Below are positions 23,830-40,100 of a DNA stretch of 64,000 bases, in pieces. The notes beneath the pieces were generated by a model, which did no database searches, was not told where the DNA came from, and saw only the letters and a list, made by a program, of their open reading frames with translations. Made by a program: the position numbers and the translations under genes. This stretch comes from Eledone cirrhosa (taxonomy: Eukaryota): positions 124,248,001-124,312,000 of the forward strand of contig OZ024742.1 of NCBI GenBank assembly GCA_964016885.1, in the 5' to 3' direction. Each line of letters starts with the position of its first letter. The stretch's first letter is position 1.

Positions 23830-23854
23830 TATATATATATAAATATAATAATAA

Positions 23855-24330
23855 TGGAGCTGCGGCGTTGCAAATGGGTTACATATAAAAAAGGGGGAGG
23901 GTCCTTCATCAGTGACCCTCCAACCGTCCCAGGCATTTCATCGCTTTAAGGGCCATATACCTCAGGTTGGTGCGAACAACGGCTAAAAAAAGTCGTTTGG
24001 ACACGTAAATAAAGAGAACGTTAGGGTGAACAAACAAAATGGTTTAAGCAACAGAAAGTGAGAGAAAAGAGACAAGTCCCAGATTTCTATGAATATAAAC
24101 TCGATAAAATCGTGAACTACTAGAGAATAAAGACCATCGGACCTGGTTGAAATGTGAGAAGGAAGGAATTTCTCACAGGTCTAACGGGAGGAAGAAGAAG
24201 AAGGGGTCAGGTCGGCGAATTCGGTAAACATAAGTTTTGTGAAGACGCAGACGAGAGAGAGAGAGAAAAAAAATTCATACCGCTTGGCCAAGAGTGCGCG
24301 AGAAAAGGAATCGGACAGGTCAAGCGGGAT
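23855..24330 (-). mobile_element. Probable PLE 3' UTR/pLTR fragment (family Y) in (TA)n
   Basis: Pyrimidine-rich minus strand leading into an HHR-like motif; (TA)n on both sides; no coding remnant seen. Confidence 0.5.
23906..23970 (-). ncRNA. Rearranged, pseudoknotted hammerhead-like RNA
   Basis: CCAACC-UG-AGGUA-U-A^UGGCCCU-UAAAGCGAU-GAAA-UGCCU-GGGAC-GGUUGG-AGGGUCA-CUGAUGA; three helices of 6, 5 and 7 bp, fully paired when G-U is allowed. Confidence 0.75.
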
Positions 24331-36469: not shown

Positions 36470-39142
36470 CGGGTGTCTCTGACCATTCACCACGGTAATT
36501 CTTTTTCTGTTTTAGTCCGCTGAGCTCAGATGAAACATTGTTCGGACTGGTGTGTGATGTCTGTCGCCCCTTTCTCTTTCTTTCGTTGCTTGTTCCCTTT
36601 AATAGTTTGTCTTGCTTTGGTATAAACAACTTTTTAAATTTGTATTATTATTTGAGAAAGAAGAACATTTTATTTATATAATAGTCGAGGTTAATCACGT
36701 TTTGATTTATTACTACTTGTATGCTCATGAAATAATTAGATGGAACTAAAGTGTTATGCCTTACTAACATTCTACGGACATTTAAATTGATTAAATACAT
36801 ATACAAATGAATGAATAAATAAATAGATGAATAAATGTTTTTGATATGCTGAGAAACAGTTTAAATGTAAGCATCTATTATACAATTTGATAGGTTTAAT
36901 TTTTAGTGTTTTCGGTATATAATGTTTTAAAGAATATTGAGAAACACATTTTCTAAGTTGTTTTATTTGCATTATATCTAACAGGAATTGTGACCCGTAG
37001 AGAGTTAGCAATTGGATAGACTAACGGAAACATTGTTTCCTTGGTCGTATCTCACTATTTACACCTCAATCGATAAGCTAATGAGGCGTGGGATCTTGTC
37101 GATTCGGATCAATATTTGTATTGTTCTAATACGCCATTGTACGCTCCAATAAAATTAGATAAAATCATAAAGCATTTAATATATTTTCCTATTAGATTTG
37201 GAAGAGAGATTATACACTTGTAACAGATTATACGGTACATTTATAGTAAAGGTACATTGATATCAGCTTAAATGAGCATCTTGGATTTAATAATGTCATT
37301 TTAGAAATTAGTCACTCATAACACATGATTGTATAAGTAATCTAACAATAATTGCATGTCATTAGAATTAGGTAAATTTGTTGTATTGTTTTATATGAAA
37401 GCTTGTATACTTTTATATTATAGAAGTGTAGTTGTATATGCACGAAAACAAGTTAATAGACTTACCGCTGTAAATACAACACAGATTTAGGACTTATATA
37501 TATTATAATTATACAAATGTGTCATTGATAAAAGTACTTTATGGTTAGTCTGGAATACTATTTATAGAAACACGTCACTTTAGATATTACCTAGCTTTAA
37601 ATATACAGTATGTATTTAAAGTGACATATTCCTGCATGATAAAGTCAGAATTCAATAGATCGTGTTTGTACAAGCAAATCTGAAATAAGCTGCTTGAATG
37701 GCTGAGGAAGCACAAGAGGCGTCATAATGAGTATGTGTCTTATCGATACTAGGAATATTCAAATACAGTGATAAATGTTATCAGTTTCACCATATTCTTT
37801 ATATACAAGTAGTCTTGCTTTGATTACTGATCAATTCTAAGTCCTTCACTATTGGCAGTTCTAGTGGCGTACACTAAGAAAAGATAAATTAAACAATATA
37901 GACATCCGTGCATAAATATTTACTGGATTACGACACTTTAAAGAATTGCAAAATATTTACAATTTTAATATTGTAATGCATGCAGCTGTAATATACAATC
38001 TGACATAAAATAGATACAATTTTGAGAAAATAAAACGATATGGAATTCCAAATATAAGAAATATATTACTGAAATTAACAAATGTATTTTATAATATTAT
38101 CAGGAAAATAACACTGAGTTAATACCGAATAAACTTTAAACCAAGTTATGAATTTCGAATATGCTTGCAAGAAAACGTGTATGTCAAAGACAAATGAATA
38201 TTTGTTCAACAAAATTGATGTCCCATAATAATACTGCATAAACATTCAACGATATTCAAATAATTGTTGCCTGCGTTAAACATTACCGTTTTATATACGT
38301 ACAGATGTTTCCATTTCAACAGCAATATGTAATGTGATAATGACTGGAAATGTATGAATTAAACTTCAGGATAACTTTATTATGTTAAATGCTTCTCGTT
38401 ACTTAAATAGACAATTCTTTACAATTGAAGAAATCATAAATTGACGGTTTTGATGTCCATGGTATTTTCGTCCGGAATAAAATATTTTACTTCCAAATAG
38501 ACATAAAGTCTCTATTGCCTTCTTACTTGTATGGTTGTCTCTCTATTGCAACTCTCTCCTATCAGAATGATATATTATTTCATTCCATTTTGTTTTGTAG
38601 AGAATCTATTAACAATTGTGTTTACAAAAACATATGATTAATCTAACACTTGCGTCAATAGAAAACGTTATATATCAATTTAAGTTTAAATGCATGCTTC
38701 ATATATAATCAAAACAAATAATATTTAAAAACTATGAACATACTTCAAATTTATAAATTGGAGATAATTGACAAATTTAGTCGCTATGATAGAACAAAAG
38801 TAGATCCACATAAAATACAGATACTTATAATTCCTGTAATTAGAATTTGAGATAATACCAGGGTTGTGTACTCACAAAAGAAAGGAACAATCAACACACT
38901 ATGCAAGTTGAGATTATTTTATACATTAACACCCAGCAGCGTGGGCGTAAATGTACACATTTCCTTCAATAGGTTTTTAAATATTAAAAAGTATCTCTAA
39001 AAAAATGTCAACGTTTCACTCAAACGAAGCCGTTTGATTAAACATAAGTGAATCTCGTAATAAAATATTCTCAACTCTTCCATTATGTGTTATTTACACT
39101 TCTCTTTAGATTCTTTAGTACCCATTTATATGTATATATATA

Positions 39143-39209
<67 letters not shown>

Positions 39210-39259
39210 CTTAAAATGCAGTGGGAATACGAAGAAAGCAAGAACGTGGCGGGGTTTCC

Positions 39260-39324
39260 TCATCAGTTGTCTGCTGGGAGTCTCGGATATTTCTACGCTT
39301 TAAAGACAAAATATTTCACCCCAG
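39260..39324 (-). ncRNA. Rearranged hammerhead-like RNA, family X left arm
   Basis: CUGGGG-UG-AAAUA-U-U^UUGUCUU-UAAAGCGUA-GAAA-UAUCC-GAGAC-UCCCAG-CAGACAA-CUGAUGA. Confidence 0.7.
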
Positions 39325-39724
39325 GGCGTCAATAACTGGATAAGTTATTGGGGAAACGGAGGAGGGATGGAAGGAAAGCAAAAGTGAAGAAAAGAGAAAA
39401 CAGTAAAAAAACAGCGAGCAGAAAAAACAAATAAACCGAGCAATCTGCGAGCAACTTAAGGTAAGCAAATCGAAGACAACTCGATAATAGGACTTACCTT
39501 CAAGATTTAGTGGTCGAGAGAAAAAAGACACACGTCTGATCGCCGCAGGTTTAAGTGAGAAGAGAACTGGGTCTTGGATTTCCTTACCTTAAGTTGCTCG
39601 CACATTGTTCGGTCTGTTGTTTCTTTTCGCTGTTTTTTTTACTATTTTCTCTTTTATTCCCTTTTGCTTTCCTTCCCTCCCTCCCTCCTCCGTTTTCCAA
39701 ATAACCTATCCAGTTATTGACGCC

Positions 39725-39788
39725 CTGGAGTGAGAAATATTGTCTTTAAAGCGTAGAAATATCCGAGACCCCAGCAGACAACTGATGA
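39725..39788 (+). ncRNA. Rearranged hammerhead-like RNA, family X right arm
   Basis: CUGGAG-UG-AGAAA-U-A^UUGUCUU-UAAAGCGUA-GAAA-UAUCC-GAGAC-CCCAG-CAGACAA-CUGAUGA. Confidence 0.7.
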
Positions 39789-39868
39789 GCCCCCCCCCCC
39801 CCCTGCGTCCTTGTTTCCTTCGCATTCCCACTGCATTGTTGCTTAAATACCAACTACACAGCCATTTC

Positions 39869-40100
<232 letters not shown>

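What the first reader, a model, noticed from the sequence alone, without database searches (positions are those of the whole stretch)
39260..39788. Same rearranged motif in an unrelated fold-back element, with covarying helices
Seen: both arms of the 39214-39870 inverted element contain CUGG(G/A)G-UG-A(A/G)A(U/A)A-U-H^UUGUCUU-UAAAGCG-UA-GAAA-UAUCC-GAGAC-(U)CCCAG-CAGACAA-CUGAUGA. Compared with 23906-23970, segment lengths are identical in the left arm (the right arm has a 1-nt deletion). The unpaired motifs UG, UAAAGCG, GAAA, GRGAC and CUGAUGA are conserved. Helix sequences differ but remain largely complementary (CCAACC/GGUUGG versus CUGGGG/UCCCAG; UGGCCCU/AGGGUCA versus UUGUCU/AGACAA); stem III is only partly paired in each arm. 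I see no similarity in the flanks. Inference: a selected RNA fold shared by distinct retroelement families; UAAAGCG and GRGAC/UG are candidate tertiary modules replacing stem II.
Basis: partly seen in the sequence, partly recalled or inferred. Interest (0 to 1): 0.88.

Follow-up and report, generated by a model that had tools for sequence, protein, structure and literature searches.

The report
Split-core rearranged hammerhead of Naiad retroelements
Both arms of this fold-back repeat hold decayed copies of a likely self-cutting RNA (a hammerhead) whose strands come in a scrambled order, with one core helix supplied by an upstream strand; the same fold sits at the tail of Naiad jumping genes that were reported to lack one, but cutting is untested.

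Summary
The motif is real: 1,426 exact pattern matches in this 3.0-Gb genome against 0 in the control. It carries the whole hammerhead core in site-GAAA-CUGAUGA order, as in type SGC, but fails that type: the strand after CUGAUGA does not pair with the strand before GAAA. An upstream strand pairs with GCG(U/A) to make stem II; CUGAUGA leads into another helix (P0) closing a hairpin (P4), giving a predicted four-way junction. All six helices covary over eight families. So UAAAGCG is linker plus stem II, and UG/GRGAC fits a kink-turn. The element is two 5'-truncated, head-to-head copies of a non-coding Penelope-like unit in (TA)n; X and Y are distant relatives, not unrelated. The same fold follows a Naiad-type RT in a metagenome contig and ends 8 published Naiad consensi; 5 nematode Naiads carry type CSG. 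Against: cleavage untested, the 10.1-11.1 pair is lost in X/Y/Z, copy ends do not peak at the cut, no coding partner found here. This scan reported the same fold earlier on other DNA.

The parts
39207..39569 (-). Left copy of the family-Y unit, 5'-truncated at about 39569, 3' end running into (TA)n
   Evidence: blastn against Y tandem units L029 and L012, 84-85% identity
39571..39875 (+). Right copy of the family-Y unit, 5'-truncated, head-to-head with the left copy
   Evidence: a read-through RNA folds as one long hairpin, -380 kcal/mol
39254..39357 (-). Left-arm split-core hammerhead; all six helices present, H17 = U
   Evidence: joint II+P4+P0 score 44 against a shuffle maximum of 28, 0/100; coordinates
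39352..39357 (-). P0 5' strand; pairs 6 bp with 39254-39259, the strand right after CUGAUGA
39330..39350 (-). P4 hairpin, 8 bp
39326..39329 (-). Upstream strand of stem II; pairs 4 bp with 39295-39298 (the GCGU of UAAAGCGU); the 10.1/11.1 position is G.A
39274..39324 (-). P1 (39319-39324 with 39274-39279), predicted kink-turn (39316-39318 with 39280-39285), stem III (39311-39315 with 39286-39290)
39309..39310 (-). Predicted cleavage site of the left arm, between 39310 and 39309, by analogy with hammerheads
   Evidence: inference from U16.1-A15.1 and stem I; not observed
39260..39272 (-). Stem I 3' strand (39267-39272, pairs with 39304-39309) and CUGAUGA (39260-39266); GAAA lies at 39290-39293
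39692..39789 (+). Right-arm copy: P4 39700-39718, stem II 39720-39723 with 39751-39754, predicted cut 39739/39740, GAAA 39756-39759, CUGAUGA 39782-39788; the P0 3' strand is replaced by a C run and stem III has an A.A mismatch
23901..24004 (-).
   Evidence: joint score 36, 0/100 shuffles
23830..24330 (-). Family-X element, 5'-truncated, between (TA)n tracts
   Evidence: 80-97% identity to other X loci
39130..39208 (.). (TA)n tract at the left end; a (CT)n(TA)n tract lies at about 39875-39980 on the right
   Evidence: (TA)n is the reported Naiad target (PMC8557442)

Best explanation
This is a fold-back pair of decayed copies of a short non-coding repeat, likely derived from a Naiad Penelope-like retroelement, each carrying a hammerhead core in site-GAAA-CUGAUGA order whose stem II is supplied by an upstream strand, and which is predicted to cut its own RNA after UH. 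Strand order (shown by sequence and covariation): P0 5' strand, P4 hairpin, stem II 5' strand, P1, stem III, UH, stem I, UAAA linker, stem II 3' strand, GAAA, stem III, P1, stem I, CUGAUGA, P0 3' strand. Inferred: the hammerhead's A9-to-10.1 link is opened and replaced by a four-way junction (core, P0, P4, stem II). P1, stem I and stem II meet in a three-way junction that takes the place of the usual stem I-II contact, and in X/Y/Z a kink-turn bends stem III-P1 so that one molecule can close on itself. Inferred role: cutting tandem transcripts to unit length, after which a Naiad RT/endonuclease acting in trans copies them into (TA)n, leaving tandem, truncated and inverted insertions like this one. 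The two window copies are probably inert: the right arm lost P0, and read-through RNA would form one long duplex.
For: 1,426 vs 0, 132 vs 1 and 131 vs 4 pattern hits. Core helices I, III, II and P1 in 50 of 104 own-genome copies and 2 of 111 viral or metagenome hits; both of those two also show P4 and P0 pairings. The upstream module beats all 100 shuffles in 18 of 24 copies tried and all 40 shuffles in 14 of 25 cores not seen before. Strand-swap test over 8 families: own partner pairs 0.92-1.00, other families' 0.41-0.77, with 1 to 12 of 40,320 permutations reaching the observed value per helix. L148 has the fold 245 nt after the stop of an RT that has the Naiad-length RT3-RT4 gap (73 aa against 52) and no C-terminal GIY-YIG. 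The same fold, read by eye, ends 8 published Naiad consensi: coral x3, box jellyfish, ctenophore, one arthropod, octopus x2, in a clade reported to lack canonical hammerheads but to hold 'half cores'. Own-genome Naiad-type RT remnants carry a decayed site-GAAA-core motif downstream in 8 loci, 5 of them with U3/A8, a core covariation known from Cercyon elements. Related SGC and CSG permutations cleave in vitro. Tandem arrays of about 630 nt in X and about 530 nt in Y.
Against: No cleavage data. The 10.1-11.1 pair is G-C in W, U, V, L148 and L150 but U.U, G.A or C.U in X, Y and Z; my prediction that an X-type copy with C11.1 would have G opposite failed, both copies are C.C. 5' junctions with (TA)n do not peak at the cut: X 4 of 29 loci against 11 at the UAAA linker; Y 7 of 27, inside an ATATA microhomology (first 100 rows, counted by eye). 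No shared unit sequence between X/Y/Z and own-genome Naiad RT remnants, and no RT next to 60 motif loci, so the Naiad link for these families rests on the fold and the insertion pattern. Registers of stem II, P1, P4 and P0 were chosen by me, and the model was derived from X and Y. 11 of 25 new cores did not beat the shuffles. Oyster Naiads (3 of 3 ends read) show no such core. In another PLE, hammerhead cleavage was dispensable for insertion in vitro.
Confidence: 0.6

Rival explanations
1. Same fold and chemistry, but the active core is assembled from two copies: the loop carrying UH, the stem I 5' strand, the stem II 3' strand and GAAA of one unit docks on the end of another unit that carries the upstream stem II strand and CUGAUGA. 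Cutting would then happen only in tandem transcripts.
For: In one published Naiad (place 37) stem III plus P1 is 15 bp with a single-nucleotide bulge, about 40 A at the recalled 2.8 A per bp, which a 5-6 bp stem I and 1-2 linker nucleotides could hardly span in one molecule. Minimal PLE hammerheads are proposed to work as dimers. The families form tandem arrays.
Against: X/Y/Z place a kink-turn signature exactly between stem III and P1 (both GA in 53 of 73 copies), which suggests closure within one molecule. The geometry is arithmetic, not a model.
Confidence: 0.2
2. In the X/Y/Z lineage the fold is a catalytically weak or dead hammerhead derivative, kept as a recognition structure for the retroelement protein or as a passenger near the unit's 3' end.
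For: The 10.1-11.1 pair is lost and 11.1 varies among A, U, G and C. No excess of copy ends at the cut. Cleavage was not needed for PAc insertion.
Against: CUGANGA, GAAA and U16.1 are invariant across 20 aligned copies from six groups while helices turn over, which fits selection on catalysis; part of that invariance was imposed by the search patterns.
Confidence: 0.15
3. X and Y are descendants of one repeat and the shared words reflect ancestry alone, with no selected structure.
For: The families are homologous, flanks included.
Against: Helix strands changed on both sides while pairing was kept in all six helices, also in metagenome contigs and in Naiads of several phyla; 0 of the other 109 chance hits fold this way.
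Confidence: 0.03

Closest known systems
Type-SGC hammerhead (HRIMA-1 and SGC variants; Eckert et al. 2023, PMC10085705)
   Same: Block order site, GAAA, CUGANGA; stem I as a pseudoknot; short U/A linker from stem I into the stem II strand; all core nucleotides.
   Different: In SGC the strand right after CUGANGA is stem II and a fourth helix flanks block C. Here stem II comes from upstream, block C is split at A9 by a predicted four-way junction, and the extra helix P1 extends stem III. SGC was found only in metatranscriptomes; this is genomic animal DNA.
Type-CSG hammerhead (same paper)
   Same: Same cyclic order of blocks; this fold equals CSG opened between A9 and 10.1. Five nematode Naiad consensi read as CSG.
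   Different: CSG keeps block C whole and has no P0/P4 module.
PLE minimal hammerheads and non-LTR retrozymes (PMC4209133; bioRxiv 10.64898/2026.07.22.740005)
   Same: Hammerhead in the terminal repeat of a Penelope-like element; short non-coding tandem units; close pairs on opposite strands.
   Different: Those are type I in classical order with a hairpin stem II and a weak stem III.
Naiad Penelope-like elements (Craig et al. 2021, PMC8557442)
   Same: (TA)n target, inverted 5'-truncated copies, and the same RNA fold at the 3' end of 8 consensi.
   Different: Families X and Y are non-coding, and no coding partner was found in this genome; oyster Naiads lack the fold.

Membership tests
Hammerhead ribozyme | CUGANGA, GAAA, UH with A15.1-U16.1 | tested here: met
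Hammerhead ribozyme | Stems I and III flanking the site | tested here: met
   Covary over 8 families; 4 of 5 stem III pairs in each window arm
Hammerhead ribozyme | Paired 10.1-11.1 at the base of stem II | tested here: inconclusive
   G-C in W, U, V, L148, L150; mismatched in X, Y, Z including both window arms
Hammerhead ribozyme | Site-specific self-cleavage | not testable with these tools
   Needs a bench assay
Hammerhead types I-III (Rfam models) | Classical cyclic block order and a covariance-model match | tested here: not met
   No hammerhead family at E up to 10 in 39205-39880 or at E up to 5 in L148 and L150
Type-SGC hammerhead | Order site, GAAA, CUGANGA | tested here: met
Type-SGC hammerhead | Stem II formed by the strand directly after CUGANGA (block C intact) | tested here: not met
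   That strand pairs upstream (P0); stem II uses another upstream strand
Type-SGC hammerhead | Fourth helix joining the flanks of block C | tested here: not met
   Replaced by P1 and P0/P4
Kink-turn | 3-nt bulge followed by tandem G.A and A.G | tested here: met
   Both window arms; both GA in 53 of 73 X/Y/Z copies, 0 of 17 V, 1 of 109 chance hits. The 3' GA was imposed by the pattern for X and Y. Definition from abstracts
Naiad PLE | (TA)n target and inverted 5'-truncated copies | tested here: met
Naiad PLE | ORF with N-terminal GIY-YIG and C-terminal RT, linked to family X or Y | tested here: not met
   Units are non-coding; no sequence link to own-genome Naiad RT remnants
Naiad PLE (contig L148) | RT with an insertion of about 20 aa between RT3 and RT4 and no C-terminal endonuclease | tested here: met
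   73 against 52 aa; ORF ends after the RT. The N-terminus lies outside the DNA held; no Pfam match
Non-LTR retrozyme | Tandem non-coding units with one ribozyme each | tested here: met
Non-LTR retrozyme | Type I hammerhead | tested here: not met
   Non-circular order
Non-LTR retrozyme | Circular RNA accumulates | not testable with these tools
   No reads could be laid

The most novel reading that the evidence does not exclude
A natural hammerhead topology outside the six-permutation scheme: the catalytic core is split between A9 and 10.1 and rejoined through a four-way junction. It is the missing ribozyme of many Naiad retroelements across ctenophores, cnidarians, molluscs and arthropods, while nematode Naiads use type CSG. 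Naiads would thus be the first known animal hosts of non-circularly permuted ribozymes, and some families may cleave only by docking two copies.
Probability: 0.62. Interest if true: 0.85.

Novelty: new variant of a known kind. Interest (0 to 1): 0.76.

Why it matters
Eckert et al. assumed that the three hammerhead blocks cannot be interrupted and found no rearranged form in a known genome except one doubtful bacterial case; this fold breaks block C and occurs in over a thousand copies in an animal genome. Craig et al. concluded that Naiads lack canonical hammerheads and left 'half cores' unexplained; the fold explains the octopus case directly, and nematode Naiads supply a likely host class for type CSG. 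It makes two questions testable with 110-nt transcripts: whether a hammerhead core tolerates a four-way junction in place of stem II's base, and whether ribozymes are general to Penelope-like elements. Standard descriptors and Rfam miss it, so ribozyme counts in invertebrate genomes may be far too low.

Tried and rejected
Type-SGC membership: rejected because block C is not intact. UAAAGCG as a tertiary module: rejected; GCG is a stem II strand and the linker varies from 1 to 5 nt. Rfam over the whole window gave 232 matches at E up to 5; the 150 shown were microRNA-type and similar hits, largely on simple repeats, and the focused scans found no ribozyme. Nested folding does not recover the pseudoknots: z -0.7 to -1.6. 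Viral contigs: 12 pattern hits, none with the fold; the 3 hits entered the chance group where flanks allowed; no relative of the L148 RT. No RNA holder was listed, which is no evidence either way. The octopus-Naiad motif pattern had 0 hits in G000. GIY-YIG ORFs beside L016 and L027 lie on the opposite strand and were not shown to be linked. Z-type copies near two RT remnants (L231, L234) are antisense to the RT and look like separate insertions. The abundant 777-aa ORF is a C-terminal-endonuclease PLE with no motif nearby. A free best-helix search was too permissive to test P4 and P0 in X, so an adjacency-constrained search was used. MAFFT registers for P4 and P0 differed between families, so pairs were counted on anchored coordinates. 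Prokaryotic genomes were not scanned.

Full report
Observation. The motif occurs on the minus strand at 39260-39324, on the plus strand at 39725-39788 (one base shorter) and on the minus strand at 23906-23970. Looser patterns gave 132 against 1 and 131 against 4 and revealed further families (Z, W, U, V and others). These counts are for exact patterns and are lower bounds.

The element. Positions 39207-39569 are a minus-strand copy and 39571-39875 a plus-strand copy of the family-Y unit, both 5'-truncated and joined head to head, with (TA)n on the outside. Elsewhere Y forms tandem units of about 530 nt and X arrays of about 630 nt, with no ORF. Tandem copies, inverted truncated copies and (TA)n targets are the described signature of Naiad Penelope-like elements (PMC8557442, passages). 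A transcript through both arms would fold as one long duplex.

The fold. The core words come in the order site, GAAA, CUGAUGA. That is type SGC of Eckert et al. (PMC10085705; main text parts 1-6 of 8, supplement parts 4 and 6 and search passages; the HRIMA-1 alignment itself was not seen), where stem II is made by the strand that follows CUGANGA. Here that strand is not complementary to the strand before GAAA. They abut, so core, P0, P4 and stem II would form a four-way junction (inference). P1, stem I and stem II meet at their far ends through 0-5 nt.

Tests. (a) Stems I, III, II and P1 of at least 4 bp form in 50 of 104 distinct own-genome copies (X 18 of 25, Y 6 of 16, Z 18 of 32, V 6 of 17, others 2 of 14) and in 2 of 111 scorable viral or metagenome pattern hits; I set those two (L148, L150) apart after seeing them. 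(b) With adjacency enforced, stem II + P4 + P0 beat all 100 shuffles in 18 of 24 chosen copies; 2 did not (1/100, 8/100) and 4 gave no joint fold. The left arm scores 44 against a shuffle maximum of 28; the right arm scores 27 with P0 reduced to one pair. (c) In 25 cores fetched afterwards, 14 beat all 40 shuffles; several failures are truncated or rearranged inside the motif. (d) One copy from each of 8 families: strands pair with their own partner at 0.92-1.00 and with other families' at 0.41-0.77; 1, 8, 12, 4, 2 and 2 of 40,320 permutations reach the observed value for I, III, II, P1, P4 and P0; position 11.2 shows four pair types. I chose the registers of II, P1, P4 and P0, and the families are related, so these are not probabilities; (b) and (c) address the choice of register.

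The UG/GRGAC loop. Earlier scan notes suggested a kink-turn. A 3-nt bulge followed by GA, facing GA on the other strand, is present in both window arms and in 53 of 73 X/Y/Z copies (Y often has UA), in 0 of 17 V copies and in neither L148 nor L150. The consensus definition and 50 degree angle are from abstracts in a search listing (PMC5061560, PMC2790904). It is therefore a lineage-specific bend, not part of the core.

Relatedness. X, Y, Z and W align over 115 nt with few gaps. Upstream flanks align Y to Z (0/300 shuffles) and Z to X (0/300), Y to X only weakly (17/300); Y and W share a 3'-terminal motif (0/300). They are deeply diverged relatives.

Link to Naiads. L148 holds the fold on the sense strand 245 nt after the stop of an RT whose RT3-RT4 gap is 21 aa longer than in a C-terminal-endonuclease PLE of this genome and which has no C-terminal GIY-YIG. 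Craig et al. state that Naiads lack canonical hammerheads and flag eight 'half cores'. In their consensus file (supplement parts 1, 20 and 24 of 59, plus searches for three core spellings: places 23-52 of 62, 1-23 of 23, 1-30 of 43; matches split by line breaks are missed; read by eye) the complete fold is at or near the 3' end of 8 of 54 records: three Acropora, one Morbakka, the first record (ctenophore by file order; stem I only 2 bp), one arthropod record, and two octopus records, one of them flagged half core. One more record fits imperfectly. Five nematode records read as clean type CSG. Three oyster 3' ends have no hammerhead core. In G000, Naiad-type RT copies found were broken; 8 of the 73 overlapping RT loci searched reach a downstream site-GAAA-core motif with stems I and III, 5 reading U3/A8, 2 A3/A8 and 1 C3/G8, with stem II unresolved. 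U3-A8 is a known PLE core covariation (PMC4209133, part 1 of 4). No sequence link between those remnants and X, Y or Z was found, so for the window's families the Naiad origin is inferred.

Against activity. The 10.1-11.1 pair is G-C in five of eight families but mismatched in X, Y and Z, and the predicted G opposite C11.1 was not found; only 3 exact Y matches have C11.1. That this pair matters for catalysis is recalled, not from a call. Copy 5' ends do not peak at the cut, unlike a claim in one earlier scan note on another genome. In the PAc element cleavage was dispensable in vitro (PMC11167929, passages). One published record has a nearly straight 15-bp stem III-P1, which favours docking between copies.

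Novelty. Six searches of the held library found no description of a split-block hammerhead or of permuted hammerheads in Naiads; the 2026 retrozyme preprint (parts 1-2 of 5; its supplements are closed) used type I models only in the parts read. Subscription journals are largely outside the library. Rfam has no match. The scan itself reported this fold nine times on other DNA; I had reached the split-core and Naiad reading before that call (notes), and those notes are not independent evidence.

Verdict. A real, covariation-supported new topology of a known ribozyme, carried by Penelope-like repeats and very likely the unrecognised hammerhead of many Naiads. The two copies in the finding are decayed members; cleavage remains to be shown.

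Noticed in passing
window 2918 (+), 59258 (+), 57938 (-): One repeat family with a classical-order hammerhead core (CUGACGA, 5-6 bp hairpin, GAAA), probably minimal PLE hammerheads.
   Followed up: partly
window 21877 (+), 21719 (-), 57218 (+); 49152 (+), 49028 (-): Two more families with classical-order cores, each with an inverted pair, so the window holds both classical and permuted forms.
   Followed up: partly
window 20721-17554 (-); 48370-47339 (-): Two long ORFs of an endonuclease/RT LINE-like element, and a 344-aa frame resembling the end of a PLE RT; labels are my reading of the translations.
   Followed up: no
L300:824-1023 (-) and L229, L304, L194, L206, L203, L198, L297: Own-genome Naiad-type remnants carry a different site-GAAA-core arrangement with an AU-rich hairpin between stem I and GAAA in most copies and mostly U3/A8; possibly a further variant.
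   Followed up: partly
L150:1-1153: Metagenome contig whose first and last ~120 nt repeat, with one copy of the fold and no long ORF: a candidate circular or tandem unit of about 1,030 nt. It shares a motif downstream of the ribozyme with L148.
   Followed up: no
PMC8557442 supplement, nematode Naiad consensi: Five records are clean type CSG; the published CSG examples came from soil DNA, so nematode Naiads may be their source (inference).
   Followed up: partly
PMC8557442 supplement, oyster Naiad 3' ends: A different, strongly conserved structured motif without hammerhead words; by eye it could be HDV-like. Untested.
   Followed up: no
PMC8557442 supplement parts 16-19: Several arthropod Naiads have CUGANGA with complementary flanks in yet other arrangements; not parsed.
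   Followed up: no
L216: 777-aa ORF and many near-identical copies in G000: A young, intact PLE family with a C-terminal GIY-YIG endonuclease.
   Followed up: partly
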